Assembly: GCA_009926935.1 (NCBI GenBank)
Contig: RFNZ01000004.1
Span: forward strand, 21,104 to 85,103
DNA length: 64,000 bases
From: Pseudomonadota bacterium
GTDB taxonomy: Bacteria > Pseudomonadota > Alphaproteobacteria > Micavibrionales > UBA1664
Direction: 5' to 3'
In this document: positions 4,541-49,866 of the stretch, piece by piece
Numbering within the stretch: the stretch's first letter is position 1
Layout: the number at the start of each line of letters is the position of its first letter
Position numbers and translations under genes: made by a program
Notes under the pieces: generated by a model
What the model saw: the letters and a program-made list of their open reading frames with translations, nothing else
Database searches by the model: none
What the model was told of the DNA's origin: nothing

Positions 4541-5452
4541 TTACGCCCGGCGCTCAAGCACATAACGTGCAAATGCGCGCAGGATATCGGCGCGATTATC
4601 AAAGACATGTAGATGGCGGACAGCCTGCGCAACAAGCATTTCGGCGCGCATTTTTGCCTGCTCGGCCCCAAGCGTGGTTACGAAGGTGGATTTGCCTGCG
4701 GCCTCGTCCTTGCCTTTGGACTTACCGGTCTCTTTAGGGTCGCCTTCAACATCGAGGATGTCATCCGTGACCTGAAACGCAAGGCCAAGGTCAAAGGCAT
4801 AGTTACGCAAAGCTTTTTTGCGCGTTTCATCCGCGCGGCCAAGCACGGCGCCTGCTTCACACGCAAAGGCCATCAGCATGCCTGTTTTCATGCGGTGCAG
4901 GCGGCTGATCTGCCCAACGTCAAAACTTTCCTTCTCGCCGATGAGGTCAAGCATCTGGCCGCCCACCATGCCGTGCATACCTGCGGCTTTGGCAAGTAAG
5001 GTCGTAAGCTCACAGCGTACGTAGGGGTCAACAGCCGTTTCAGGCTCCGCAATAACTTCAAAGGCCAATGTAAGCAGGGCATCGCCCGCGAGGATCGCCG
5101 TTGCCTCATCATATTTTTTATGAAGGGAAGGGATCCCGCGGCGCAGATCAGCATCATCCATTGCCGGTAAATCGTCGTGCGCAAGGCTGTAGCAGTGAAT
5201 AAATTCGAGGGCGGCGGCCACACGTTTGGCACGCATCACATCAACGCCAAAAAGCTTGGCGGATTCAATCACCAGAAACGGCCTGATACGTTTGCCGCCT
5301 TCAAGAGTAGCGTAGCGCATAGCCTCAACCAACTTGTTTTCCGGTGTATCGTTCAGCGGCAACATCGTTTCGATGGTTGTTTTGATGCCTGAGGCGGTTT
5401 CTGCCAAAGCTTCCTGCAATTCGGGTGATGAGGCGGCGCGTGGTGAAGGCAT
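4541..5452 (-). CDS. ispA: Farnesyl-diphosphate synthase / geranyltranstransferase
   Basis: GGKRIRP, YSLAHDDLPAMDDADLRRG (first DDxxD), FQVTDDILD (second); adjacent to xseB. Confidence 0.95.
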   Translation of the reverse strand: MPSPRAASSPELQEALAETASGIKTTIETMLPLNDTPENKLVEAMRYATLEGGKRIRPFLVIESAKLFGVDVMRAKRVAAALEFIHCYSLAHDDLPAMDDADLRRGIPSLHKKYDEATAILAGDALLTLAFEVIAEPETAVDPYVRCELTTLLAKAAGMHGMVGGQMLDLIGEKESFDVGQISRLHRMKTGMLMAFACEAGAVLGRADETRKKALRNYAFDLGLAFQVTDDILDVEGDPKETGKSKGKDEAAGKSTFVTTLGAEQAKMRAEMLVAQAVRHLHVFDNRADILRAFARYVLERRA

Positions 5453-5466
5453 AGCTAACCTGACTT

Positions 5467-5718
5467 CTATTGATCGGGGTTGAAGGGCGTTGTACCGGCG
5501 GGAGTTCCATCGGCGGAGAGATTGATTTTTTCGACCCTCAGCCGCGCATCTTTAAGGCGGGCTTCGCAGTGCTGCTTCAGGACCATTCCGCGCTCGTAGG
5601 CGGCGATAGAGTCCTCAAGCGGGGTCTGGCCGGCCTCAAGGGCGCGCACGATGCCTTCCAGCTCGGAAAGCGCGGCCTCAAAGGTCATTTTCCCAATGTT
5701 TTCAGCAGCTTTGGTCAT
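5467..5718 (-). CDS. xseB: Exodeoxyribonuclease VII small subunit
   Basis: TFEAALSELEGIVRALEAGQTPLEDSIAAYERGMVL; start set at MTKAAE. Confidence 0.93.
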   Translation of the reverse strand: MTKAAENIGKMTFEAALSELEGIVRALEAGQTPLEDSIAAYERGMVLKQHCEARLKDARLRVEKINLSADGTPAGTTPFNPDQ

Positions 5719-5788
5719 AGGGCCCAAAGCCTAGCCTTTTGCGCATGTCAGGGCAAGGAATAAGAGTAGACGGGGTTTAAATGTGACG

Positions 5789-6463
5789 TCACGCGACGCG
5801 GGGCCGATCACCACTTGCGGGGGTTAGCGCCTGGCCGTAAAACCGCTCGGCCACTTTCGGCACAATAAGGCGAAACGTATCAAGATCGCGCAGCCTGTCT
5901 GCAACATCCTGACCCATGATATGCCCGCCAGAGGCGATCGCAGCGCCGTCAATCATCAGGTTGTCATGCATGTCAAAAGGCTCGAGAGATGTTTTGTTTG
6001 CGGTCTCCCGCCAGAACCCATGCTCGTCCTGCATAATCTGATGATTGAAATACCCTTGGAGTCTTTCAAAAAACAGCTTTGAAACATTACTGTAAACAAA
6101 AAGCGGCTTGCCAAGGGCCCTCATAAAGCCGATCTCAAAAGCCGTGCCCACATCTAGGCTAGGGCCATGCCAAGGTGTTGCATTGGCAATGATCGTATCG
6201 GCGCCGCGCATAATTTCCTCGTTTTTACGTGAAATTTCCATGCCCGCGCCATGAGGTGTAAAAGCAGACAGATCGACATCACCATCAAAAGGGAAGATTC
6301 CAAGCAATCCGTACTCCGCACAGATACGCTTCTTTGCAAGGCCAATCGCAAAGGCATCAGGCAGAAAGACTTCAGGGCCTGCAAGATAAACGCGGGGAGG
6401 TGCGGCGCGGCCCTTTTTCTGGGCATTGGCAGTAGCAAGCCTGAGCAGGTCGTCGTTGGTCAT
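5789..6463 (-). CDS. Nucleoside 2-deoxyribosyltransferase / N-glycosidase family protein
   Basis: VYLAGPEVF, ADTIIAN, DVGTAFEIGFMRALGKP. Confidence 0.85.
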   Translation of the reverse strand: MTNDDLLRLATANAQKKGRAAPPRVYLAGPEVFLPDAFAIGLAKKRICAEYGLLGIFPFDGDVDLSAFTPHGAGMEISRKNEEIMRGADTIIANATPWHGPSLDVGTAFEIGFMRALGKPLFVYSNVSKLFFERLQGYFNHQIMQDEHGFWRETANKTSLEPFDMHDNLMIDGAAIASGGHIMGQDVADRLRDLDTFRLIVPKVAERFYGQALTPASGDRPRVA

Positions 6464-6635
6464 CGGTATCTCCCCTTACACATGACAACTAGCAAAAGGA
6501 AAATCGCGACTCAAGGGCAAGTATTTCTTGAGAATTACCACGCTTCAGACGCCGTTTTGGAGCCTCTTCAAACTTGACGCAACAAACACGGATGTTAACG
6601 ATGGCGTCTAGTTTAACGGAAATGAAAGCCCCGAA

Positions 6636-7619
6636 GTGAAAAAAGCGCTGATATTTGGAATAACAGGCCAAGACGGATCTTATCTTGCGGAGTTATTGCT
6701 GGCAAAGGGCTACGCGGTAAGCGGCGTAACACGCCGCACCTCCGTAAACAACCGTGTAAGGCTTGCAGGCATAGCTGACAGAATCACATTGCACGAGGGC
6801 GATCTGACGGATTCAGGAAGTATCTGGAGAGCGTTATCGGCCACACAGCCGAATGAGGTCTACAACCTCGCAGCACAAAGCCATGTGCACACAAGTTTTG
6901 TGCAGCCAGAGTATACGGGCAGTGTAAACGCACTTGGCCCCGTGCGCATTCTGGAGGCCATCCGCACGCTGGATGTGGGGATAAAGTTCTATCAGGCATC
7001 AACCTCAGAGCTTTTTGGACAGGGCACGGATGACGGCAAGGCACTCAACGAAGACGCACCCATGAAGCCGGCAAGCCCTTACGGCGCGGCCAAGCTTTAT
7101 GCGTACTCGATGGTCAGGCTTTATCGTGAGGCTTATGGCCTTTTCGCCTGCAATGGCATCCTTTTTAACCACGAGAGCTCAAGGCGGGGTGGTGATTTTG
7201 TAACGCTCAAAATTGCGGCCTTTGCAAAGTCGCTTAAAGAGGGCTCCTGGGATGGAAAGCCCCTTAAGCTGGGAAATCTTGAAGCGCGCCGCGATTGGGG
7301 CCACGCCCGCGACTACGTAGAAGGCATGTGGCGCATGCTGCAAAACGAATCGGCATCCGACTATGTGCTGGCAACGGGCAGGGCACTGAGCGTGCGGGAG
7401 TTTGCGGATAAGGCCCTCGCAAAAGCAGGCATAGTGCCCGTATGGTCAGAAAATGGCGCGGTTGATTCTAAAGGCAGAGTTTTGATAACCGTCGATCCAG
7501 CACTTTTCAGGCCGGTGGATGTCCAGTGCCTTTTGGGCGATAGCAGCCGCGCACAAAAACAGCTTGGTTGGAAACCAAGCTGCACAATAGAAGATCTAGT
7601 GGAGGAGATGATCGCTTAA
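6636..7619 (+). CDS. gmd: GDP-mannose 4,6-dehydratase
   Basis: GITGQDGSYLAELLL, YNLAAQSHV, YQASTSE, PYGAAK, RDWGHARDYV. Confidence 0.95.
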   Translation: MKKALIFGITGQDGSYLAELLLAKGYAVSGVTRRTSVNNRVRLAGIADRITLHEGDLTDSGSIWRALSATQPNEVYNLAAQSHVHTSFVQPEYTGSVNALGPVRILEAIRTLDVGIKFYQASTSELFGQGTDDGKALNEDAPMKPASPYGAAKLYAYSMVRLYREAYGLFACNGILFNHESSRRGGDFVTLKIAAFAKSLKEGSWDGKPLKLGNLEARRDWGHARDYVEGMWRMLQNESASDYVLATGRALSVREFADKALAKAGIVPVWSENGAVDSKGRVLITVDPALFRPVDVQCLLGDSSRAQKQLGWKPSCTIEDLVEEMIA

Positions 7620-7839
7620 GCAGCTTGTCTAATGACTATAACAGGCGTCATTGCAAATCCGCTCGCGCTTTGAACCGAAGGAAGTTGTTCAAAAAGGACA
7701 ACAGTTTCATTAGATGTATTGGGAGCTTTGGCTGTTTTTTTCGCTCCTGATGATTTGGACATTTTTTTACTCCCAGACGTGAAAATATTTTAAAATTATG
7801 TAATCTGATGAAATTCTAGCATGACCGGAAAATACTGCA

Positions 7840-8787
7840 ATGCACAATTTTGAGGGAAAGAAGGTCTGGGTAGCAGGGTCGCGGGGCATGGTTGGCGCGG
7901 CGCTTGTCCAGAGGCTTATGCAGGAGAGCGCACGGATCGTGCAGGATCCGCCAAGGCAGGTACTGGATCTGCGCCGTCAGGCGGATGTCGAGGGATGGAT
8001 GGAGAGCAGCAGGCCGGATGTCGTATTTGTAGCGGCAGCGCGTGTTGGCGGTATCCTTGATAACGCCAATCATCCGGCAGACTTTATTGCGGATAACTTA
8101 CAAATCGAAACCAATATCATCACGACCGCCGCAAAACTTGGCGTAAGCCAGCTCGTTTTTCTGGGGTCCTCCTGCATCTATCCAAAACACGCACCCCAGC
8201 CACTGAAAGAGGAATACCTGCTCACCGGCCCGCTTGAGGAGACGAACAGGGCCTACGCCATGGCAAAGCTCGCGGGTATTGAGCTTGTAAACGCCTATCG
8301 TAAACAGCATGACTGCAATTTTATGAGCGTGCTGCCCTGTAACCTCTACGGCCCCGGTGATACTTACGATATCCAGAATTCACACGTCATCCCGGCACTT
8401 ATGATGCGCCTGAAAGAAGCGATCGAGAGCAAGTCTGCCGAGTTTAAAGTCTGGGGTACAGGCAAGCCGCGCCGCGAGTTCATGCATGTCAATGACTGTG
8501 CAGATGCGATCATACACGCAGCAAAAAATATCGCGAATGAATTGGTAAATATCGGCACGGGCGAAGATATCAGCATCGCTGATCTTGTGGCTATACTGAC
8601 TGAAATCGCGGGCTACAAAGGGCAGATAGTTTTTGATACATCAAAACCAGATGGCACGCCCAGAAAGCTTCTCGACATCAGCCGCCTACAGGCATCAACC
8701 TGGGGGCCTCAAATCTCGCTCAAGCAGGGGCTCGAGCTTACTTGGCAGGCTTTTTCTGATCAGCCTTCACAGCGTCGTCGGGCGTAG
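7840..8787 (+). CDS. fcl: GDP-L-fucose synthase
   Basis: GSRGMVG, AAARVGGI, LGSSCIYPK, YAMAK, PCNLYGP, DGTPRK. Confidence 0.95.
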   Translation: MHNFEGKKVWVAGSRGMVGAALVQRLMQESARIVQDPPRQVLDLRRQADVEGWMESSRPDVVFVAAARVGGILDNANHPADFIADNLQIETNIITTAAKLGVSQLVFLGSSCIYPKHAPQPLKEEYLLTGPLEETNRAYAMAKLAGIELVNAYRKQHDCNFMSVLPCNLYGPGDTYDIQNSHVIPALMMRLKEAIESKSAEFKVWGTGKPRREFMHVNDCADAIIHAAKNIANELVNIGTGEDISIADLVAILTEIAGYKGQIVFDTSKPDGTPRKLLDISRLQASTWGPQISLKQGLELTWQAFSDQPSQRRRA

Positions 8788-40178: not shown

Positions 40179-41242
40179 GCGGAAACCGTTTCGGCACGTT
40201 ATTCCAGTACCAGACATGGGGTGAAAGCCACGGGCCTGCGATCGGCGTTGTGGTTGATGGCGTACCGCCGCGCTTGGCGCTGACCGAAGCCGATATCCAG
40301 CAATACTTGGATAAACGCCGCCCGGGGCAAAGCCGCCACACCACACAGCGGCAGGAACCTGACGCGGTTAAAATCCTCTCCGGCGTATTCGAGGGGCAAA
40401 CCACAGGCACGCCCATCAGCCTGATGATTGAAAACGTCGATGCGAAATCGAAAGACTACGACGATGTAAAAGATAAATTCCGCCCCGGCCACGCCGATTA
40501 CACCTATCAGGCAAAATACGGCATCCGTGACTATCGCGGCGGTGGCAGAAGTTCGGCGCGTGAAACCGCAAGCCGTGTAGCCGCAGGCGCTGTCGCACGC
40601 AAAATTTTAAGCGGCGTTACAATCCGCGGCAGCGTCGTACAAATAGGCCCGCACAAAATCAACCGCGACAACTGGGATTGGGCGCAGGTCAGTGAAAACG
40701 ATTTTTTCACGGCCGACAAACAGGCCGCCAAGATGTGGGCGGATTATCTGGACGGTGTACGCAAAAACGGATCATCGGCAGGCGCGGTTATTGAAGTTGT
40801 GGCTTCAGGCGTACCCGCAGGTTGGGGTGCGCCCGTTTACGATAAACTCGATGCTGACCTCGCCAAAGCCATGATGTCCATCAACGCGGTCAAAGGCGTT
40901 GAAGTCGGTGCGGGTTTTGATTGCGTCGCGTGGGGCGGCGAAAAGAATGGCGACGATATCCGAATGGATAACGGCAAACCGAAATTCATGTCAAACTACG
41001 CAGGCGGCATTTTAGGCGGCATTTCAACAGGGCAGGATATTGTTGTGCGCTTTGCAGTCAAACCCACAAGCAGTATCCTCACGCCAAAAGATACGATTAC
41101 AAAAGACGGCGATGAAACCCAAATCATCACCAAGGGCCGTCACGACCCGTGCGTAGGCATCAGGGCCGTGCCCGTAGGCGAAGCGATGATGGCCTGTGTT
41201 CTGGCCGATCACTTTTTGCGCCACAAGGCCCAGTGCGGGTAG
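40175..41242 (+). CDS. aroC: Chorismate synthase
   Basis: [37 protein letters not shown]. Confidence 0.97.
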
Positions 41243-42976
41243 TTACCATTTAGGGAATAGGTGAGGGCGTTCCTTCTGCTCGGCTTGGCGAAGCGCAATG
41301 GTAACGCTATCGCTCATCAAACCATCGTGTAGCCGCTTTAAAACGGCTGGCAATTTAGCGCGATGCCGTTTGTTTGCCTCAGTATGAATAAGGCCGTGGT
41401 TATCAAGAGACTGTTCAATGGACGCGATAACAATATGGTCACTTGGCTTCATATCCATTTTCTTCATGCGCCACATGAGAAATGTGCCGCGCATATCGTG
41501 GCTAGCCTGACGTCCGTCAGAAATAAATTTTTTTGCTCCTCCAATATAAATACCTGCCAATGCTGCTATTGGTGCAAAAGCAATTCTTAAGGCGTTTGGC
41601 AGCTCAAACGGTTTTGTTTCCGGATAAAAAGGCTCGTCACCGTCAGAACCTCTGCCTTTGGCAAGTTGCGCTAGATCGTTCTGAATCATTTTCTCCCGCC
41701 ACGGCGCCCTATAGGAAGACAGAATGTTAAACCCCGTCATGGATGAGATTTTTTTTGTCGTTTCGCGCCCGCGGCTTAAAACCCGTCTGGCTGTTTGCTC
41801 ACGGAGATATTTGTCTTCAAGTTTTAAATGGGCGTCTATGCAGGCGCTGGCGTATTCGATAAGCGGATGGTTGTTCGGTACAACGCGCATCAGATGATGC
41901 ACCATGAAGGTGGCCATATAAAACTGCATGTTTTGGCTTACTTCGCTGCTAACTTCGCCTTCGCTGTCAGGCTTTGCATGAAGCTGACCCAGTTTTTCAA
42001 AGTAGCTATCTAGCCGTGCGTGAACAAAATCTCTGAAACCTTCGTTTTTTTCGTATTGCCTCTGAAACACCTCGGCCTGGGCGTGCAGTCCAAAGGCTTC
42101 ATAACTATCAAGAGCGGGATCCGCAAATGCTAGGCCTTCATTTTCGTACATCAGGCTATTTGTTACGGTGTCCGTATCGCTCGGGCCTTTACGCTCATCA
42201 TCAAACAATCCGACAGGGGTATCGGAAGTGGAAAAAATTTCTTGTTCTTGAAAGATGCTTAAGGTTCTGCCCGTGTCTGAATGGTACCAGTCGTGGTTGA
42301 TGGTAAGGCCAAAAAGCACCTGGCATTCCTGTAGCATGCCATCGAGTTTCTGTTCACGTGCTGCCGAGATGATAGAAGGCGGTAATTCTAGGTAGGGCAG
42401 AGTGATGAGTTCGCTCCGCTCAACCTCATTAACTGTTCTCTTCCGAACGAAATTCATGAAGCCGAAGCCTGTATAGGCAGCGCCTTTCATGGACATTTTC
42501 GTATAACGTCCTGCGGGGATACCAAAATTGGCACCAACCTGGCCAAGATGAATATCGAATGGTTTTAGTATGGGATTGAGCGCAGCGCGCAGGTAATCTG
42601 AATCCGTTGGTCCAAGTTCCGTTTCCTTTGTTTTCGGATCAACGGTTACCTTATATGCCACGATTGCGGGCAGAGGCATCATGGCCAAACGTGTGTTGAG
42701 GGCGTTTACGGCAAAAGTACCGCCTAGTTTTTCTGCATTCCAGTCCGGGCTTCCTATGATATCAGCAAGACCTTCCCAAACAGGCCCAAGGGCCCTGCGT
42801 TGCATCTGGATAAGGCTTCCAAGCGGCTGTTTTTCAAGCTCTCTCAGCATGTCCTGCAAAACACCCGCATTAAGCTCGGCATCTGCGCCCTCGTGGGCAC
42901 CCAAAACGGGGGCAAAAGGCAGGAGTTCTATACCCGCCTTAAGCATACTGGCTGAAAGGTCGTTTTCTTGAGTCAT
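41243..42976 (-). CDS. Orphan protein with HDWYH motif (paralog 1)
   Basis: 577 aa; NHDWYH coded at 42281-42295; YEAFGL..QAEVFQR; MVHHLMRVVP..HPL; AT-richer than the flanking housekeeping genes by eye. Confidence 0.8.
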   Translation of the reverse strand: MTQENDLSASMLKAGIELLPFAPVLGAHEGADAELNAGVLQDMLRELEKQPLGSLIQMQRRALGPVWEGLADIIGSPDWNAEKLGGTFAVNALNTRLAMMPLPAIVAYKVTVDPKTKETELGPTDSDYLRAALNPILKPFDIHLGQVGANFGIPAGRYTKMSMKGAAYTGFGFMNFVRKRTVNEVERSELITLPYLELPPSIISAAREQKLDGMLQECQVLFGLTINHDWYHSDTGRTLSIFQEQEIFSTSDTPVGLFDDERKGPSDTDTVTNSLMYENEGLAFADPALDSYEAFGLHAQAEVFQRQYEKNEGFRDFVHARLDSYFEKLGQLHAKPDSEGEVSSEVSQNMQFYMATFMVHHLMRVVPNNHPLIEYASACIDAHLKLEDKYLREQTARRVLSRGRETTKKISSMTGFNILSSYRAPWREKMIQNDLAQLAKGRGSDGDEPFYPETKPFELPNALRIAFAPIAALAGIYIGGAKKFISDGRQASHDMRGTFLMWRMKKMDMKPSDHIVIASIEQSLDNHGLIHTEANKRHRAKLPAVLKRLHDGLMSDSVTIALRQAEQKERPHLFPKW

Positions 42977-42994
42977 TACAGCGGAAGTCTATAG

Positions 42995-43009
42995 AAAATA
43001 CGTAAATAA
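42995..43009 (-). promoter_or_regulatory. Shared upstream motif, copy 1 (AAAATACGTAAATAA on +)
   Basis: Identical 15-mer at 44810-44824 upstream of the paralog. Confidence 0.55.
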
Positions 43010-43101
43010 TCACTTTATACGGGGTATTATAATGAGCTTTCTCCAGAGCTCGCTTGTGTATTGGTGGACACTTCCTCTGTCAAAACGCTCATTGCAGATG
43101 A

Positions 43102-44769
43102 TTAATGAGCGGGCTGAGGTTGCGGTTTTTGATGCTGCCCTACCGCTTTATGCCAATCGTCAAAAACGGCATCCATAAGCAGTTGCATGGCACGAGGTGC
43201 GCTCTCTCTAAATTTTAGATATGAGGGCGTATGAATAGAGCCATGATGATCGAATGACTGCTCCCAGGCTGCCCAACGTATGTGTTCCGCAGTGGTCCAT
43301 TTTTTAGTCAATCGATAGAGCTTCGGTATGCTTGCAGCAACACGTACTGAAAAATCCATCTCTTTCAAACCACCGCGCACATCTCGTGCTATTTCAATAA
43401 ATGGAGCGAGTAACGAAGATCTTTTAACTTCCGGTTCTGCTGTTTTCTGCGGAAGTTTTAAATTTCTGCGGCGCTGGATATCTTTGTGATCGGCCACTTG
43501 TTCTTCCAAGTCAGTTGATTTGAGGGGTGAGGGAGCCTGCAACCCGGTGACCGCTGAAATGTCTGCTGTAGATTTTTTACTGCGCCGAATAACGCGTTCA
43601 AAAGTATCATTTTTTAGGAAGCTTTTATCGATGTCACAGTGATCGTTGATCCAGCCTTCGCATTTTTTAAAGAGTGGATGGTCAACCGGTACAACGCGTA
43701 AAAGATGGTGCATCATTAAGGTTGAAAAATAGTGCTGTGCTTGATTGGCAAGCGTTTTATGTTCGTCACGCGGTGTGATGCTCATATAACGGATATCAAA
43801 GCCAAGCTGCCCGACTTTCTTAAAAAACTGCTCAAGTCGTGAATCGATATACCCCTGCATGGAGGGGTTCTGGTAAAGGCGTTGAAAAGCTTCTGCCTGA
43901 ACAATGAGCCCTAGCGACTCATATCCGTTCTCGTCAAGTTCTGAGAATACATAGCCTTCATGGCGTTCATTTATCACAGTTGTTACTGCTGAACCACGTC
44001 CTCTGGGAATTAACTTCTCTTCTCTTCTTTCAAAATGAACGCCATATGGGGTTTCGGAGAGTTCGTAGCCCTTGTTGCCGTAGTATGGATTTATAATCAA
44101 AGGCGTCATGGCGTGGTACCAGTCGTGATTGATCAGCGCAAAAATTGATTGGAAATCACGCAGTAAAGGTTCTGCGTTCAAGCGTTTGGTAACTTGAAGG
44201 ATTTCTTTTGGTACGGTAACATAGGGGATGGATACTAAGTTTGATACGATGCGGTGGTCATTTGTTCGTTGGTTCCGAACGATATTGATGAAACCAAAAT
44301 GGGTGCTTCCTGGCCCATTCATTACCATTGAAGGGATGTAGGGCATACCAAAGCTATCCGCAACGACACCAAATTTCATGCCAAATTGATCCAGTGTCTC
44401 TCCATGTGCTTCCTCTAAGGCCCCTCTATTGGTATAAACCGGAAGTATGGCGGGCTGTAACAATTGGAGCAGTCTAGCTCCTCTTGCGGTAAGTCTGAAT
44501 ACTTGCCCCATATCCTGACCAGTCCAAATGTATTTCGCATCTGGTGGTGGCGGTGTCTCTCGTATCATATTGGAGACGACATCAAGGACGGGCATAAGCC
44601 CCTGTTTTTGTAAATCAGCGAGTTCTCCTAATGATCTTTCATGCAATTTACACGCAAGGTCAGCCCATACTTGCTGGTCATCGCTGCCACCGTAAGCAAT
44701 TGGAGAGTAGGCATGCAGAGCATCATTCGCATGTACAAATCCTTCAATGTCGATAGCCGGTATGTTCAA
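43102..44769 (-). CDS. Orphan protein with HDWYH motif (paralog 2)
   Basis: 555 aa, TTG start; NHDWYH coded at 44113-44127; YESLGL..QAEAFQR; MMHHLLRVVP..HPL. Confidence 0.8.
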   Translation of the reverse strand: MNIPAIDIEGFVHANDALHAYSPIAYGGSDDQQVWADLACKLHERSLGELADLQKQGLMPVLDVVSNMIRETPPPPDAKYIWTGQDMGQVFRLTARGARLLQLLQPAILPVYTNRGALEEAHGETLDQFGMKFGVVADSFGMPYIPSMVMNGPGSTHFGFINIVRNQRTNDHRIVSNLVSIPYVTVPKEILQVTKRLNAEPLLRDFQSIFALINHDWYHAMTPLIINPYYGNKGYELSETPYGVHFERREEKLIPRGRGSAVTTVINERHEGYVFSELDENGYESLGLIVQAEAFQRLYQNPSMQGYIDSRLEQFFKKVGQLGFDIRYMSITPRDEHKTLANQAQHYFSTLMMHHLLRVVPVDHPLFKKCEGWINDHCDIDKSFLKNDTFERVIRRSKKSTADISAVTGLQAPSPLKSTDLEEQVADHKDIQRRRNLKLPQKTAEPEVKRSSLLAPFIEIARDVRGGLKEMDFSVRVAASIPKLYRLTKKWTTAEHIRWAAWEQSFDHHGSIHTPSYLKFRESAPRAMQLLMDAVFDDWHKAVGQHQKPQPQPAH

Positions 44770-44809
44770 GCTGCCTGCCTAAAAAATGGTTTTATGACGT
44801 ATTGTAGAA

Positions 44810-44824
44810 AAAATACGTAAATAA
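44810..44824 (-). promoter_or_regulatory. Shared upstream motif, copy 2
   Basis: Identical to 42995-43009. Confidence 0.55.
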
Positions 44825-44861
44825 ACGATTTATTCCGCAGTTTACAAGTTATTTGGGGTGA

Positions 44862-46127
44862 TCACTCCCCGAATTCCGCCAGTTCTGGCACGCGTGCGAA
44901 CGCGATTTTGGTTCCCACAAACCCTGCCTGTGTTTTGGGCATGTTGCCGAAATGAAGGGCCTGCGGCCCATAGGCTTTGGCGATATCGTCCATAGCAGCC
45001 GACAACGCCGTATTTTTTGGTTTACGCGGGGCGGAGGCCGCAAATAAATCGCCCGTGGTTTCGGCGGCTTCCTGCAAACCCGCAAGCGCGATGGATACTT
45101 TTTTGACAGCAGCCGGTTTCATTGTATCCGTCATCGTATCCCACAGGGCATGGGTCAGGCGCACGAAAGTCAGGGTATCGCTATCGGGCGCAATGCGTAC
45201 ATCCTGCCCCCAGCGCCGCCCATCCGCAAGGCGCACCGATAAATGAAAATGTGTGGCATACATCTCGTAACGCCGGAGGCGCTGGCACGCCTTCACGGTA
45301 AGCCTGCGGCACACATCCCGTGCAACATCAGGCCTGCGTGAATCGAAATCCAGCACGCGGCTATGCCCAACCACGCTTTTGTTTGTTTCAAGATCGGGTA
45401 CGTCGTAGCCGTGCAGGCGGTACCAGAATTTCTCGCCCTCTACACTCCTCCAGATGGCGCGCATTTGCTTCGGGTGTACATCCCACAACTGCTTCATGGT
45501 CCAGATACCGGCATTATTGAGCCGTGCCTCCATATTGGCGCCGATACCGCATAAATCCCTGATATCGAGATCAAGCAAAGGCCCCGGCAGCCTATGCCCT
45601 TCAAGCACGGTCATGCCGTTGGGTTTTTTCATGTCGCTGGCGACTTTTGCAAGCCACGCATTGGGTGCTAGGCCAACCGAACAGGTGATGCATTCACCCA
45701 CATTGCGGCGCAGCCCGTCTTTGATGCGGCCCACAAGGGCGGTTGCGGCCTCGACATTTTGTTTGAGTGGCAGAAGGCGGCTTGCCAATTCGTCAATCGA
45801 CCAGATTTTGCCGATAGGCGTATGCAGCGCCACTTCCTCGATAATCTTATGATGGTAGCGCACGTAAACATCATGCCGCGCCAGAACGCAGATTAATGAC
45901 GGGCACATCTGTTTGGCTTCCCAAATGCTGGTACCTGTTTTGATACCGAAGGCTTTGGCCTCGTACGATGCCGCAATCGCGCAGGTGGCATCGGTCGGCA
46001 TCGGTACGATGGCAATGGGCTTGCCGCGTAGATGCGGGTTCTCTTGTTGCTCGCAGGAAGCAAAGTAGCTGTTGAGGTCCAGAAACAACCATTGGACCCC
46101 GTAAGGGCGTGGCGGAGTTATCATCAT
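44862..46127 (-). CDS. dinB: Y-family DNA polymerase (DinB/Pol IV-like)
   Basis: FLDLNSYFASCE, AASYEAKAFGIKTG, WSIDE, LAKVASDMKKPNG, GIG; catalytic acidic residues intact. Confidence 0.92.
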   Translation of the reverse strand: MMITPPRPYGVQWLFLDLNSYFASCEQQENPHLRGKPIAIVPMPTDATCAIAASYEAKAFGIKTGTSIWEAKQMCPSLICVLARHDVYVRYHHKIIEEVALHTPIGKIWSIDELASRLLPLKQNVEAATALVGRIKDGLRRNVGECITCSVGLAPNAWLAKVASDMKKPNGMTVLEGHRLPGPLLDLDIRDLCGIGANMEARLNNAGIWTMKQLWDVHPKQMRAIWRSVEGEKFWYRLHGYDVPDLETNKSVVGHSRVLDFDSRRPDVARDVCRRLTVKACQRLRRYEMYATHFHLSVRLADGRRWGQDVRIAPDSDTLTFVRLTHALWDTMTDTMKPAAVKKVSIALAGLQEAAETTGDLFAASAPRKPKNTALSAAMDDIAKAYGPQALHFGNMPKTQAGFVGTKIAFARVPELAEFGE

Positions 46128-46129
46128 AA

Positions 46130-46173
46130 TGTTCTATATTTGTTCTAATTATAAAAAGAACAAAAATAGAACA
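46130..46173 (-). promoter_or_regulatory. Two inverted alphaproteobacterial LexA (SOS) boxes
   Basis: GTTC-TATATTT-GTTC (46131-46145) and GAAC-AAAAATA-GAAC (46158-46172); TTGACA on the minus strand at 46180-46175 and TATAAT between the boxes. Confidence 0.85.
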
Positions 46174-46184
46174 ATGTCAAGAGG

Positions 46185-47735
46185 TCAGTGTACAGCGGCA
46201 GGCTGGTGAGTGGCGTGTTTAAGCGCCCTGCGGATAATCTTGGGGCCTTGGCCGTCAGGCATTTGCAAACCATCCATAAGAGCACGGGCGGCAGGCAGTG
46301 TGTGAGAAACGCTGTCCAGAAACTTGCCAAAGACAAGCCGGTTATAGGCATTCACGTTCATGCTGGTGTCGGGCTCGAGCAACATCGACTTGATGACTTT
46401 AAGATGAGGCATGATGTCGTGTTTCTGGGTTTTCTCCGTACCAAAATGGAGGTTGCCCAGATAAAGCAGAACCTGCGGCAGGCGTTCCGTGCTTCCGCCA
46501 AGGATGCCTTTAAGATCATCCGGCGGTATGGCGCCGCAGGCATGAAGGTTTTTGAGTACATAGTTAAAAACAGCCTGTGGCGCCTGATAGGCTTTGTTCG
46601 CACGGCTGGGGGATATAAGCGTGTTATAGGTAGCAAGCCACATGGGCGCTGGCATGTCTTTAGCCGAGGGCAATGGCCCGCTGGCTCCGGATTTCATGCA
46701 GTATCCCTGCCACACGGGGCCAAGCAGCGCTGCCATCGTCTCGTTCGCCGATTTCGGCTGCTCACCGGGTGAAACACGGTCTGTCTTGTCAGCATTAAAG
46801 CGTAAGCCGATAGCATCAAGTCGCTGCTGGAGGACATCGCGGGCGCGATCCGCATCTTGCGGGTTCGCCGACGCAATCCTGAAATCGTCGTGGTATCTGA
46901 AATATTCAAGCCCCGGCGTTTTTTTACACAAAGCCTGCATTTCAACATCAACCTGATGCATATACAGTTTCATCAGGACATCTGTGAGGATCGACTCTTG
47001 AGGGAGGCCCTGGACGCCCTGCTTCTTCCACGAATCAAGGATAGCGCTGAGCGCCTGAATACGGGCGGGATCAAGGCCCATCTGTTCAAGCCCAGCGCAA
47101 AGATGTTCGTATTGCACACTGCCCGAGAAATCGGAAACATCAAGAATATGAACAGTATGATTGCCGCTATTGATAAGCTCTTCGGTTCTTTCACGAAACT
47201 TTCCGAACGAGGCACCGTAAGCAGTCAGCCAGCTTACATCTGGTTTTGCATCTTCAACTTTGCCTGATTTTCTCTCAGCCGCAGAAATTAGTTTGGGCTG
47301 GAGCGGCGCCACAGGCAGTGGGCGACAATAATCGATCATGCCTTCTTGCGTGCCAAGTTCACCCGCATAAAGCGTGCTCCAAATTTTTTTATATTCACTG
47401 GTAACAAGGGCCAGTGCGATGACACGCTCAAAAACAGGAATGTATGCGGCCCTACGCTCTTTCCCGCCAGCCTTCGGTGTCTGAAAAAGCTCAATCAGAT
47501 CAATAGGGTTCCCGTTAGCGATACGCTTAAGATGTTTTTTGAGTTTGCCGGCAAAGGCCTCGGCATCCATTGATCCAATTTCACGAAGCTTATCAAGGTC
47601 TTCATGATGGGCGATCCTGTCGTGTTTACGGCCGTCAGCGAGTGTTTTGGTCAGCGTTGCTTCCACCCATGTGAGCGCGATTTTAAGGCCCTCGGGTGTA
47701 ATCAATCCGGCTGTATCTAAGGTACTCGTACCCAT
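46185..47735 (-). CDS. Stand-alone reverse transcriptase, divergent UG/Abi-like, with helical C-terminal extension
   Basis: PKAGGKERRAAYIPVFERV (RT1/2), ILDVSDFSGSV (D199), GLPQESILTDVLMKLYMHQVD (RT4), YFRYHDD (281-284, nt 46895-46884), GLRFNADKT (RT7). Confidence 0.85.
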   Translation of the reverse strand: MGTSTLDTAGLITPEGLKIALTWVEATLTKTLADGRKHDRIAHHEDLDKLREIGSMDAEAFAGKLKKHLKRIANGNPIDLIELFQTPKAGGKERRAAYIPVFERVIALALVTSEYKKIWSTLYAGELGTQEGMIDYCRPLPVAPLQPKLISAAERKSGKVEDAKPDVSWLTAYGASFGKFRERTEELINSGNHTVHILDVSDFSGSVQYEHLCAGLEQMGLDPARIQALSAILDSWKKQGVQGLPQESILTDVLMKLYMHQVDVEMQALCKKTPGLEYFRYHDDFRIASANPQDADRARDVLQQRLDAIGLRFNADKTDRVSPGEQPKSANETMAALLGPVWQGYCMKSGASGPLPSAKDMPAPMWLATYNTLISPSRANKAYQAPQAVFNYVLKNLHACGAIPPDDLKGILGGSTERLPQVLLYLGNLHFGTEKTQKHDIMPHLKVIKSMLLEPDTSMNVNAYNRLVFGKFLDSVSHTLPAARALMDGLQMPDGQGPKIIRRALKHATHQPAAVH

Positions 47736-47847
47736 CTGCGTTTAGTGCCTTTTTGGAAACACAGTCTCTCACTGTCAAATTACATAACAATTATTAACAA
47801 ATATGAAAAATTCTGCAAACATTTTTTTTAAGAAAAACAGAGAGTTG

Positions 47848-48570
47848 TTACTTCCGTCTGAGCCCGATAAGGGCTGAGACGATGCCATGGAAGGTCTGGG
47901 CTTCCTGATGGGTCATGCGCGAGCGCGCAAAAAAGGAGAGCAGATTACGCATGAGCGTGGGGCGCAGCTCCTCGGATCTAAAAAATCCGCCGCGATCCAT
48001 TTCCTCTTCAAGCCGTGAGACGAGGCCGGAGATAACCGCGGCATCGGCAAGCTCAGCACCACCTGTACGAAACTGGGCAGGGGCCGTAGTATCAACCGCC
48101 GTAAACCACTCGTAAGAGACGAGTAAAACAGCCTGCGCAAGGTTGAGTGATGTAAACCCAGGATTGAGCGGGATAGTCACAAGACCGCCAGCCAAAGCAA
48201 TATCCTCGTTGCCAAGGCCTGTGCGCTCAGGCCCAAACAACACCGCGGCTTGGCCTGTTTCAGCGCGCAGGCGCACGGCACTTTCACGGGCGGTAAAAAC
48301 ATCTTTCACCATGTCGCGGGTGTTTGCAGTGGTTGCCAGCACATAGGTACAATCCGCAATGGCGTCTGCCGTTGTATCGTAAAGGCGCGCAACCACGCCC
48401 TTGTCAAAGGCACCAGATGCGGCAGCCTCTGCCGGGGCCGAGGGCCAACCATCGCGAGGCGCCACGATGCGAAGGTCAGTTAGGCCGCAATTCAGCATCG
48501 CGCGGGCGCACATGCCGATGTTTTCGCCCATCTGCGGCTTGACCAGAACAATGGCGGGTGTTTTTATCAT
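47848..48570 (-). CDS. trmJ: tRNA/rRNA methyltransferase, SPOUT TrmJ/LasT family
   Basis: PQMGENIGMCARAM, FGPERTGL, SLNLAQAV; start set at MIKTP. Confidence 0.92.
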   Translation of the reverse strand: MIKTPAIVLVKPQMGENIGMCARAMLNCGLTDLRIVAPRDGWPSAPAEAAASGAFDKGVVARLYDTTADAIADCTYVLATTANTRDMVKDVFTARESAVRLRAETGQAAVLFGPERTGLGNEDIALAGGLVTIPLNPGFTSLNLAQAVLLVSYEWFTAVDTTAPAQFRTGGAELADAAVISGLVSRLEEEMDRGGFFRSEELRPTLMRNLLSFFARSRMTHQEAQTFHGIVSALIGLRRK

Positions 48571-48615
48571 GCCGCTTTGTAGGCGGATTTTCTCAAGAAA
48601 GCAAAAAGGAAAACA

Positions 48616-49866
48616 ATGCGCATCTGGACAGTCGTGGTGGGCGAGCCAAGCCCGGTAGACGGCCCTGCCACAAGGCTGCTTCGTACCGGCATTCTGGCGC
48701 ATACGCTGTCTACCCGTGGCCATGATGTGACTTGGTTCAATGCCACTTTCAATCACAACCTCAAAATCCAGCGCTTTTCAAAGAGTACGATACAAAAAAA
48801 TGTAGGCGGGCTCACGCTGGCGTTCATGCACGGGCGGGCCTATCGGAGCAATGTTTCAATTGCACGTATTGAAAACCACATGCAGGTAGCAAGGTCATTT
48901 AAAAAAATGGCCGAACGGATGGAAAAGCCAGACGTCATCCAGTGCAGCTACCCGCCGATCGAGCTCGCTCATGCTGTCGCACAGTTCGCAAAAAAGAACG
49001 GTATTCCTTATATCATCGACTATCGCGATTTGTGGCCGGATATTATTGCCGATGTCGCGCCGGTACCGCTGCGCCCTCTGGCAAAACTTGCCATGACGCC
49101 CTGGTATAAGCAGGCGCGCGAAGCGACCTTGGGGGCCGCCGGCCTGTGCGCCATCACAAAGCCCTATCTGGAATGGGCCTCAAAATTTGCAGGCCGCAAG
49201 CCGGATGCGCGCGACCGCGTGTTTCATCTTGCGACAGCAGGCAGCAAGGCACCGGATGCAGACATTAAAAAAGCCGAGGCATTCTGGGATGCGCAGGGTA
49301 TCACGGGCAAAATCCCGACACTCGTTTTTTCAGGTACACTCAGTCGCCGCATGGATTTGTATACACTTCTGGATGCAGCAGAAATTTTACCCGAAGAGGT
49401 AAGACAAAAAATTCGGATCGTCATTTGCGGTAAGGGCGAGGCGGAAGAAGAGTTAAAGAAAAAAGCCGATGGTCTGCCGCATGTTCTGATGGCAGGTTGG
49501 CGTAATCAGGCCGAGTTGCAGGCACTTATGGGTCGCGCCAAAGCGGGTTTGTTGCCGTATATATCGACGATCGATTTCCAGTGGTCGTACCCTAACAAAG
49601 TGGGTGAGTATCTGGGCGCGGGCCTTCCGATCATCACCTCGGTCACAGGTATTGTTGAAGCCCTCATCAAGTCAGAGGGCTGCGGTGCTTGTTACCGCGA
49701 AGGTGATAAAAACTCCTGCGCGCAGCTACTGACGATGATCGCTGAAAATCGTATTGATCTCGCGCCCATGTCGTATGCGGCACGCAAAGTTTATGCCCGC
49801 GATTTCGATGCCAGAAAAATCTACGACGATTACGCGGGCTATATCGAGAGCTTCAGGCAGCTCTGA
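48616..49866 (+). CDS. Glycosyltransferase family 4 (GT-B)
   Basis: DYRDLWPD, FSGTL, PNKVGEYLGAGLPII. Confidence 0.85.
   Translation: MRIWTVVVGEPSPVDGPATRLLRTGILAHTLSTRGHDVTWFNATFNHNLKIQRFSKSTIQKNVGGLTLAFMHGRAYRSNVSIARIENHMQVARSFKKMAERMEKPDVIQCSYPPIELAHAVAQFAKKNGIPYIIDYRDLWPDIIADVAPVPLRPLAKLAMTPWYKQAREATLGAAGLCAITKPYLEWASKFAGRKPDARDRVFHLATAGSKAPDADIKKAEAFWDAQGITGKIPTLVFSGTLSRRMDLYTLLDAAEILPEEVRQKIRIVICGKGEAEEELKKKADGLPHVLMAGWRNQAELQALMGRAKAGLLPYISTIDFQWSYPNKVGEYLGAGLPIITSVTGIVEALIKSEGCGACYREGDKNSCAQLLTMIAENRIDLAPMSYAARKVYARDFDARKIYDDYAGYIESFRQL

What the first reader, a model, noticed from the sequence alone, without database searches (positions are those of the whole stretch)
46185..47735. 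Stand-alone divergent reverse transcriptase with YHDD and PQE motifs
Seen: all core RT motifs are present with the three catalytic Asp intact (D199, D283, D284). The usual PQG reads PQE, the active-site loop reads YHDD, there is a ~30-aa insert before RT3, and a ~195-aa helical C-terminal extension. Known: this architecture fits UG/Abi-type RTs, which are mostly antiphage and often protein-primed or ncRNA-templated. Retron (NAxxH, VTG) and DGR (LGxxxSQ) signatures are absent, and there is no room for an intron RNA. Inference: only 112 AT-rich bp separate it from trmJ, so there is little space for an upstream ncRNA, and its codons look host-like by eye. It may be an old, domesticated RT of an unclassified clade.
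Basis: partly seen in the sequence, partly recalled or inferred. Interest (0 to 1): 0.8.

Follow-up and report, generated by a model that had tools for sequence, protein, structure and literature searches.

The report
Fast-evolving defence-type reverse transcriptase beside SOS polymerase
This is an intact reverse-transcriptase gene of the phage-defence-type UG/Abi class, from a tiny unnamed clade that one genus of freshwater bacteria has inherited at a fixed spot just upstream of its DNA-damage-induced repair polymerase; that makes it a modestly interesting new member of a known enzyme class, not a new kind of system.

Summary
The ORF is real: 516 aa on the minus strand (47735→46185). D199, YHDD (281-284), PQE (245-247), the 112-bp gap to trmJ and a helical C-terminal domain of about 190 aa are all confirmed. 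Profile and fold comparisons place it in Class 1 UG/Abi reverse transcriptases. Its fold resembles DRT4/UG15, AbiK and AbiA. The nearest named group is UG21, but it fails a full-length UG21 match. Only five such proteins were found among 1.84 billion cluster representatives. All five come from one uncultured freshwater alphaproteobacterial genus, and all lie directly upstream of the promoter and LexA boxes of the core Y-family polymerase gene. The RT and polymerase trees agree, which indicates one old acquisition, vertical descent and at least three clean losses. The RT evolves 4-6 times faster than the polymerase but stays under purifying selection. There is no room for a non-coding RNA and no defence island. 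Best reading: a single-gene, probably protein-primed and untemplated DNA polymerase of the abortive-infection type. Its position beside the polymerase is most likely inherited, not functional. A real RT-polymerase partnership is not excluded (about 0.1-0.15).

The parts
46185..47735 (-). Reverse transcriptase ORF, 516 aa (P0001). It is a Class 1 UG/Abi-type RT of an unclassified clade nearest UG21.
   Evidence: ORF list and translation. Pfam RVT_1 E=5e-11. PADLOC RT_UG21 3e-27, UG22 2e-18, Drt8 2e-17. AF2 pLDDT 88.8. Foldseek matches to UG15/DRT4, AbiK and AbiA with TM 0.5-0.53.
46770..47171 (-). RT palm/fingers core (aa 189-322). Catalytic D199 is at 47139-47141, PQE at 46995-47003 and YHDD at 46884-46895.
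   Evidence: Pfam match. D199, D283 and D284 are invariant in the five-member alignment.
47244..47303 (-). Lineage-specific 20-aa insertion (aa 145-164) between RT motifs 2 and 3. It is the least constrained segment.
   Evidence: Present only in P0001 and P0002 in alignment A1. Sliding pN/pS is 0.68 here against 0.07-0.3 elsewhere.
46188..46760 (-). C-terminal all-alpha (alphaRep-like) domain, aa ~326-516, about ten helices. It takes the place of a thumb or maturase domain.
   Evidence: DSSP on the AF2 model. Full-length structural alignments to AbiK, UG15 and AbiA. Under purifying selection, pN/pS 0.1-0.2.
47736..47847 (-). 112-bp AT-rich leader between the trmJ stop and the RT start. It holds a promoter-like site (TTTGCA-18-AATAAT, 47819->47790), no LexA box and no significant RNA structure.
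   Evidence: Sequence. Promoter scan. RNA fold z=-0.8. No Rfam match. A block of about 43 nt is conserved with L005.
46128..46184 (-). Promoter and SOS operator of the downstream polymerase gene. It holds TTGACA (46180-46175) and two alphaproteobacterial LexA boxes, GTTC-N7-GTTC (46172-46158) and GAAC-N7-GAAC (46145-46131). The RT stop codon lies 4 bp upstream of the -35 element.
   Evidence: Sequence. Boxes are conserved in all five RT loci and in RT-less relatives. In the genome-wide control, the same AT-rich-spacer boxes occur upstream of recA (three), and a box lies upstream of lexA.
44862..46127 (-). Y-family DNA polymerase (DinB/Pol IV-like, 421 aa) with catalytic D16 and D111-E112 intact. 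It is a core gene of the order. It is a neighbour of the RT and probably not a partner.
   Evidence: Pfam IMS and IMS_C. NCBIfam Pol IV models. Sequence. Present in 33 of 41 related genomes.
47848..48756 (-). trmJ (SpoU-family tRNA 2'-O-methyltransferase), the upstream core neighbour.
   Evidence: Pfam SpoU_methylase and TIGR00050.

Best explanation
The gene encodes an active single-gene Class 1 UG/Abi reverse-transcriptase-fold polymerase: fingers and palm plus a C-terminal alpha-helical repeat domain, with no thumb. It belongs to a very small, unnamed clade whose RT domain is closest to UG21. By analogy with the solved Class 1 enzymes AbiK, Abi-P2, AbiA and DRT4, it most likely makes DNA without a nucleic-acid template, primed from one of its own residues. 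Y98 is the only clade-invariant tyrosine outside YxDD. It most likely serves as an accessory, abortive-infection-type anti-phage gene. It entered the chromosome once, in the ancestor of one uncultured freshwater alphaproteobacterial genus, between an upstream core gene and the SOS promoter of the core Y-family polymerase gene. Since then it has been inherited vertically, has evolved fast and has been lost repeatedly. Its closeness to the polymerase reflects inherited position and not a joint mechanism. Shown: the class assignment, intact active site, purifying selection, vertical descent with losses, lack of ncRNA space, and SOS control of the neighbour but not of the RT. Inferred: untemplated protein-primed synthesis and the defence role.
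For: Class: the best PADLOC hits are all UG/Abi groups, led by UG21 at 93.5 bits. All clade members and the next relatives also hit UG21 best. The confident model aligns over its full length with UG15/DRT4 (TM 0.53), AbiK (0.52), AbiA (0.53), DRT6 (0.48) and Abi-P2 (0.43). Group II intron RTs match only the RT core.
Activity: D199, D283 and D284 are invariant across 28-74% identity. pN/pS is 0.23 overall and 0.07-0.68 along the gene.
No ncRNA: the upstream gap is only about 30 bp in two of the five loci. The downstream gap of 36-66 bp is filled by the polymerase promoter and operator. There is no Rfam hit and the leader fold z-score is -0.8.
Mechanistic precedent: Class 1 DRTs catalyse untemplated synthesis (PMC13174585 abstract). 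DRT4, AbiK, Abi-P2 and AbiA are protein-primed from tyrosines at varying positions (PMC12783706).
Accessory, immune-like dynamics: only five cluster representatives were found in 1.84e9. The gene is absent from five of seven genomes of the genus. Exact empty sites exist: trmJ|polY in G002 and G003, and rplS-terminator|polY in G005 against the filled L033. The polY tree needs at least three changes. The RT tree is congruent with it. RT path lengths are 4-6 times those of polY.
Inherited position: polY is core, in 33 of 41 relatives, and keeps its own SOS boxes with or without the RT. More distant relatives (P0009, P0011, P0012, P0015, G055, JGI loci) are never next to a Y-family polymerase.
Against: No defence genes lie nearby and the neighbours give no PADLOC hits. 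Even for UG21, published defence prediction was 'inconclusive' (PMC9226505). Codon use is host-like and the gene sits among housekeeping genes, which also fits a non-defence host function. No window reached pN/pS >1, though synonymous sites are saturated. No tyrosine is conserved at the AbiK or Abi-P2 type N-terminal position. All five known members sit immediately upstream of polY, including the one locus where the upstream gene changed from trmJ to rplS. So a functional link to polY is not excluded. There are no biochemical or expression data; only DNA metagenome runs hold the sequence.
Confidence: 0.5

Rival explanations
1. RT and the SOS Y-family polymerase form a functional two-polymerase module for damage tolerance, mutagenesis or immunity. 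For example, the RT makes ssDNA or cDNA that polY extends or copies. Alternatively, RT-made ssDNA activates RecA, cleaves LexA and induces polY. RT transcription reads through into polY.
For: All five clade members lie 36-66 bp upstream of polY on the same strand with no terminator between them. In L033 the upstream neighbour is rplS instead of trmJ, yet the RT stayed with polY. There is precedent for Class 1 UG/Abi RTs paired with a DNA polymerase: UG9 with family A polymerase (PMC9226505), and one such pair was seen here in G670. DRT3 combines two polymerase activities.
Against: All five loci belong to one genus in which the whole trmJ-polY-aroC-fabI neighbourhood is syntenic. The adjacency is therefore expected from descent, and only one independent rearrangement tests it. 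polY is a core gene present without the RT in 33 of 41 relatives and in five genomes of the same genus. The RT lies outside the LexA operator and has no box of its own. The RT was deleted cleanly at least three times while polY was kept. More distant relatives are never beside a Y-family polymerase.
Confidence: 0.13
2. A domesticated, non-defence host RT acts alone in a cellular task, for example RNA-templated or microhomology-mediated repair like G2L4, or production of a signalling DNA.
For: It has a fixed chromosomal position among housekeeping genes, host-like codon use and vertical inheritance. Related UG21-like RTs also sit at stable housekeeping positions, such as nhaA-icd-RT in two diverged marine contigs. 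There is no defence island. G2L4 appears among the structural hits.
Against: It was lost at least three times within one genus and evolves 4-6 times faster than its neighbours, which is unlike a recruited housekeeping gene. It is restricted to one genus. G2L4 and group II RTs match only the RT core, with lower full-length TM (0.35-0.41) than the Abi/DRT enzymes. The TIGR04416 score is 50 bits against a cut-off of 300.
Confidence: 0.15
3. An ncRNA-templated RT (DRT2, DRT9 or retron-like), whose RNA lies inside a coding region or elsewhere in the genome.
For: DRT9 is among the best Foldseek E-values. A conserved AT-rich block lies upstream of the RT in the window and in L005.
Against: Full-length TM to DRT9 is low (0.33-0.35). 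Two loci leave only about 30 bp upstream. There is no structured RNA signal. The retron motifs are absent.
Confidence: 0.07
4. A mobile retroelement remnant (group II intron, DGR or other), or an RT cassette that repeatedly and site-specifically inserts upstream of polY.
For: The cassette is minimal, with exact empty and filled sites. An imperfect 20-nt inverted repeat flanks the gene.
Against: There is no intron RNA, maturase or endonuclease domain, TR/VR repeats or integrase. The RT tree is congruent with the host polY tree, which favours a single insertion plus losses over repeated insertions. The genome holds only one copy.
Confidence: 0.03

Closest known systems
UG21 group of Class 1 UG/Abi reverse transcriptases (Mestre et al. 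2022, PMC9226505; PADLOC RT_UG21)
   Same: UG21 is the best-scoring named group for this protein and for all its relatives. It is also a single gene of about 500 aa, an RT plus a helical C-terminal region, with no assigned partner and an inconclusive defence prediction.
   Different: The query matches only profile positions 54-263 of 503 at 93.5 bits. A bona fide UG21 in G461 scores 420 bits over positions 6-488. Profile comparison with that UG21 aligns only the RT domain at 23% identity. The query is confined to one genus at one locus.
DRT4 (UG15), AbiK, Abi-P2 and AbiA: solved protein-primed, template-independent Abi/DRT polymerases
   Same: The architecture matches: thumbless RT plus alphaRep domain. 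These are the best full-length structural matches, with TM 0.43-0.53. They are single-gene systems without ncRNA.
   Different: Sequence identity is only 10-16%. No tyrosine is conserved at the known priming positions, and the candidate here is Y98. There is no HEPN or other effector domain. Oligomeric state, priming and phage trigger are untested. The gene is not in a defence island or on a plasmid or phage.
UG9 RT plus family A DNA polymerase pairs
   Same: A Class 1 UG/Abi RT encoded next to a DNA polymerase gene (example in G670).
   Different: The neighbour here is a core, SOS-regulated Y-family polymerase. It exists independently of the RT across the order and has its own promoter.
G2L4 group II intron-like RT (double-strand-break repair)
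   Same: A chromosomal stand-alone RT with a variant YxDD motif (YIDD there, YHDD here) and a possible DNA-repair setting.
   Different: Only the RT core aligns (TM 0.35-0.38; PDB profile E about 7e-11, weaker than the Abi-P2 and DRT9 hits). The group II RT model scores 50 bits against a cut-off of 300. The C-terminal domain is alphaRep-like, not a thumb or X domain.

Membership tests
Class 1 UG/Abi reverse transcriptases | RT fingers/palm with motifs 1-7 and the catalytic Asp triad | tested here: met
   RVT_1 E=5e-11. D199, D283 and D284, PKxGGxR and YxDD are invariant in the clade.
Class 1 UG/Abi reverse transcriptases | C-terminal alpha-helical repeat (alphaRep/HEAT-like) domain in place of a thumb | tested here: met
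   The AF2 model (pLDDT 88.8) has about ten helices at aa 328-510. Full-length Foldseek alignments to AbiK, UG15/DRT4 and AbiA give TM 0.5-0.53.
Class 1 UG/Abi reverse transcriptases | Best profile matches are to Class 1 UG/Abi groups rather than retron, group II, DGR or CRISPR RTs | tested here: met
   The PADLOC top hits are UG21, UG22, Drt8, UG19 and UG9. Retron and CRISPR RTs score about 40 bits lower.
Class 1 UG/Abi reverse transcriptases | Template-independent, protein-primed DNA synthesis | not testable with these tools
   This needs biochemistry. The only indirect support is the lack of ncRNA space.
Class 1 UG/Abi reverse transcriptases | Anti-phage function or defence-island context | tested here: not met
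   The neighbours are trmJ, polY, aroC, fabI and a glycosyltransferase. None gives a PADLOC hit. Function itself is untested.
UG21 group | Full-length match to the RT_UG21 profile at a score comparable to bona fide members | tested here: not met
   The query scores 93.5 bits over profile positions 54-263 of 503. A true member in G461 scores 420 bits over 6-488.
UG21 group | Homologous C-terminal domain | tested here: inconclusive
   hhalign of the clade profile against one true UG21 aligns only columns 50-292. However, relatives P0007 and P0008 extend to profile positions 384-416.
Group II intron RT / G2L | Maturase (X/thumb) domain, intron RNA domains, score above the TIGR04416 cut-off | tested here: not met
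   TIGR04416 scores 50 bits against a cut-off of 300. No group II intron Rfam hit was found in 40500-49500. Flanks are only 112 and 57 bp.
Retron RT | NAxxH and VTG motifs with an adjacent msr/msd ncRNA | tested here: not met
   The motifs are absent. There is no Rfam retron RNA. Retron profiles score about 38 bits.
DGR RT | LGxxxSQ motif with TR/VR repeat pair and an accessory gene | tested here: not met
   The motif is absent. There are no long direct repeats in 44700-48000.
UG9-type RT plus DNA polymerase system | A dedicated polymerase partner that co-occurs with the RT | tested here: not met
   polY occurs without the RT in 33 of 41 relatives and in five genomes of the same genus. It is Y-family, not family A.

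The most novel reading that the evidence does not exclude
The RT and the SOS-controlled Y-family polymerase are a true two-polymerase unit. The RT is transcribed into the polymerase gene. Either it feeds untemplated or RNA-copied DNA to the translesion polymerase, or its ssDNA product triggers RecA/LexA and so switches on the polymerase. This would link a defence-type reverse transcriptase to the bacterial DNA-damage response.
Probability: 0.12. Interest if true: 0.75.

Novelty: new member of a known kind. Interest (0 to 1): 0.4.

Why it matters
[quoted passage not shown] This clade offers an unusually clean natural experiment. One gene sits at one locus in one genus. Filled and exactly empty sites occur in sister species. 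The evolutionary rate is high, yet the active site is strictly conserved. That makes it a compact candidate for testing whether small alphaRep RTs outside defence islands are immune enzymes or have another role. It would also test whether the constant position in front of an SOS-regulated translesion polymerase means anything. If the polymerase link were real, it would connect untemplated DNA synthesis with the SOS response.

Tried and rejected
(1) I first read the given coordinates on the + strand, which gives only stops. The gene is on the - strand.
(2) Group II intron, retron, DGR and CRISPR-associated RTs were rejected on profile scores, motifs and the absence of RNA or repeats.
(3) Full UG21 membership was rejected or left open.
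(4) An upstream ncRNA was rejected: no structure signal, and only about 30 bp in two loci.
(5) I tested whether the two downstream 555- and 577-aa paralogues belong with the RT. They are absent from the other RT loci and occur without the RT in G005. They are not part of it.
(6) SOS control of the RT itself: there is no canonical box upstream, only a degenerate N6-spaced look-alike.
(7) Positive selection: no window had pN/pS >1, but synonymous sites are saturated, so the test is weak.
(8) The word-indexed protein search and two genome-contig scans found almost nothing: only P0002 and the G006 MAG. The JGI metagenome scan found only distant RT-domain relatives.
(9) Repeated site-specific insertion was disfavoured by the congruent RT and polY trees.
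(10) No RNA-seq runs hold the sequence, so transcription could not be examined.

Full report
OBSERVATION. The interval 46185-47735 has an open frame only on the minus strand. It encodes 516 aa (P0001). Pfam RVT_1 matches aa 189-322 with E=5e-11.
- D199, and Y281-H-D283-D284.
- P245-Q-E247.
- A 112-bp AT-rich gap to the SpoU/TrmJ methyltransferase gene at 47848-48756.
- A C-terminal region of about 190 aa that is entirely helical in a confident AlphaFold model (mean pLDDT 88.8, pTM 0.88).

The 'insert' is 20 aa (145-164) plus 5 aa (126-130) relative to the closest relatives. The retron and DGR signature motifs are absent. Codon use is host-like: GC3 z=-0.72 and 57th percentile of codon score against 846 long ORFs of the same 2.04-Mb, 52.9% GC genome.

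SURROUNDINGS. The order on the minus strand is trmJ, 112 bp, RT, 57 bp, then a 421-aa Y-family polymerase. The polymerase matches IMS and IMS_C, looks like Pol IV, and keeps catalytic D16 and D111-E112. After another 92 bp come two paralogous proteins of unknown function, 555 and 577 aa, 28% identical. Then come convergent aroC and fabI.

The 57-bp spacer holds TTGACA followed by GTTCTATTTTTGTTC and GAACAAATATAGAAC. These fit the alphaproteobacterial LexA-box consensus GTTC-N7-GTTC, which I take from established knowledge. As a control I scanned the whole genome. Only 31 such boxes exist. Of the six with an AT-rich spacer, three lie just upstream of recA and two upstream of this polymerase. 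lexA carries a box too. So the polymerase is SOS-regulated from its own promoter. The RT stop codon lies 4 bp from that promoter's -35 element. The RT's own leader has a promoter-like site but no canonical box.

CLASSIFICATION. The best PADLOC hits are all UG/Abi groups: RT_UG21 93.5 bits, UG22 64.7, Drt8 61.7, UG19 57.2. Retron, CRISPR and group II models score far lower.

Foldseek against the PDB gives full-length alignments to the thumbless RT-plus-alphaRep enzymes:
- UG15/DRT4, TM 0.53
- AbiA, 0.53
- AbiK, 0.52
- DRT6, 0.48
- Abi-P2, 0.43

Group II intron RTs and G2L4 align only over the RT core. This places the protein in Class 1 UG/Abi.

It is not a demonstrable UG21. The profile match covers only positions 54-263 of 503. 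A true UG21 in a class-level genome sample scores 420 bits over positions 6-488. A profile comparison with that protein aligns only the RT domain. One 202-bit 'UG21' hit turned out to sit beside a family A polymerase, which is UG9-like, so mid-range scores do not define the group.

HOW RARE, AND WHERE. An exhaustive HMMER search of 1.84 billion cluster representatives found 387 hits. Only four relatives align over the full length: P0002 at 74%, P0006 at 35%, P0007 at 33% and P0008 at 31%. All four loci have the RT immediately upstream of the same SOS-boxed polymerase.

The flanking genes show that these are species of one genus-level lineage of uncultured freshwater alphaproteobacteria. aroC is 84-89% identical, fabI 88-93% and polY 62-84%. 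In three loci the upstream gene is trmJ. In L033 it is rplS. Within the genus, five of seven reference genomes lack the RT.

G002 and G003 show trmJ followed directly by the polymerase promoter. G005 shows the rplS terminator followed directly by the polymerase promoter, where its sister L033 carries the 1.6-kb RT cassette. The Y-family polymerase itself is a core gene, found in 33 of 41 relatives.

HISTORY. A maximum-likelihood tree of the polymerase groups the genus with 97/91 support. RT-positive and RT-negative taxa are interleaved, and at least three changes are needed. The RT tree is ((G006,L034),(L033,(G000,L005))), which is congruent with the polymerase tree. The simplest history is one acquisition in the genus ancestor, vertical co-inheritance with the locus, and three or more clean deletions.

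RT path lengths are 4-6 times those of the polymerase: G000-L033 is 2.31 against 0.41, and G000-G006 is 2.7 against 0.72. The branch to the G000/L005 lineage is especially long. Even so, the gene is under purifying selection. pN/pS is 0.23 overall and 0.07-0.2 over the palm and the C-terminal domain. It peaks at 0.68 at the lineage-specific insert.

NO RNA PARTNER. Two loci leave only about 30 bp between trmJ and the RT. The downstream spacer is filled by the promoter and operator. Rfam gives nothing relevant. The 112-nt leader folds no better than shuffles, z=-0.8.

MECHANISM. Class 1 DRTs catalyse untemplated synthesis (PMC13174585 abstract). DRT4 constitutively makes random ssDNA primed from Tyr125. 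AbiK, Abi-P2 and AbiA prime from tyrosines at other positions (PMC12783706; overview PMC13213688). By fold, domain content and lack of an ncRNA, I infer the same chemistry here. Y98, in the fingers, is the only clade-invariant tyrosine besides the YxDD tyrosine, so it is the candidate primer. This step is inference, not shown.

The patchy presence, clean losses and high rate fit an immune or accessory gene better than a domesticated housekeeping one. However, there is no defence-island context, and UG21-like groups have only 'inconclusive' defence predictions.

THE POLYMERASE QUESTION. The constant RT-polY adjacency was noted independently by another first-stage note, e1-5252259, and it is real. 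Its weight is low, for these reasons:
- All five loci share ancestry and the whole neighbourhood is syntenic.
- Only one rearrangement (rplS in place of trmJ) tests the link independently.
- polY is core and keeps its own SOS promoter.
- The RT lies outside the operator.
- The RT was deleted repeatedly while polY stayed.
- More distant relatives are never next to a Y-family polymerase. These include the stand-alone RTs beside icd, ychF or a GT9 gene, the G055 RT, and the JGI loci.

I put a functional partnership at about 0.12-0.15. The UG9-PolA precedent and the absence of a terminator between the genes keep it open.

VERDICT. The gene is a new, very small clade of a known class, Class 1 UG/Abi RTs, nearest to UG21. 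It is probably a single-gene, untemplated, protein-primed polymerase with an accessory, probably anti-phage, role. It is not a new kind of system. Interest is moderate, 0.4.

Noticed in passing
window 41243-44769 (minus strand): Two tandem paralogues of 555 and 577 aa, 28% identical over their full length, lie just downstream of the polymerase gene. GC3 is low (z=-2.7 and -1.7). They have no Pfam, NCBIfam, PADLOC, PHROG or PDB sequence match. A 44%-identical homologue occurs in G005, which lacks the RT, so they are not tied to it.
   Followed up: partly
genome G000: C13:175612-175714 (recA upstream), C2:37587 (lexA upstream), C7:7973: The SOS regulon is readable from GTTC-N7-GTTC boxes with AT-rich spacers. 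Three lie upstream of recA, one upstream of lexA and two upstream of polY. One more lies at C7:7973, and I did not identify its downstream gene.
   Followed up: partly
window 47770-47815; L005 745-790; L006 2858-2888; L034 7971-8000: The RT leader has a block of about 43 nt (ATTTTTCATATTTGTTAATAATTGTTATGTA...) that is roughly 80% conserved between the window and L005, although synonymous sites are saturated. In L006 and L034 a near-perfect palindrome (CTTGTCAT..ATGACAAG) overlaps the RBS. This may be a regulatory operator or a translation-limiting hairpin.
   Followed up: no
window 46125-46144 and 47796-47815: An imperfect 20-nt inverted repeat (80% complementary) brackets the RT gene. The upstream arm looks like a decayed SOS box with N6 spacing. 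It could be a trace of how the cassette arose, or chance in AT-rich DNA.
   Followed up: no
L054/L055 6001-7410 and L056 6001-7395: More distant UG21-like RTs (P0011 and P0012, in different 50% clusters) share a fixed nhaA-icd-RT position next to GTA-like genes in marine alphaproteobacterial contigs. This is another case of a stand-alone RT held at a housekeeping locus.
   Followed up: no
L084 (G670:C1) 4710-7977: An RT scoring 202 bits on the RT_UG21 profile lies directly beside a family A DNA polymerase gene, a UG9-like arrangement. Mid-range RT_UG21 scores therefore do not identify UG21.
   Followed up: partly
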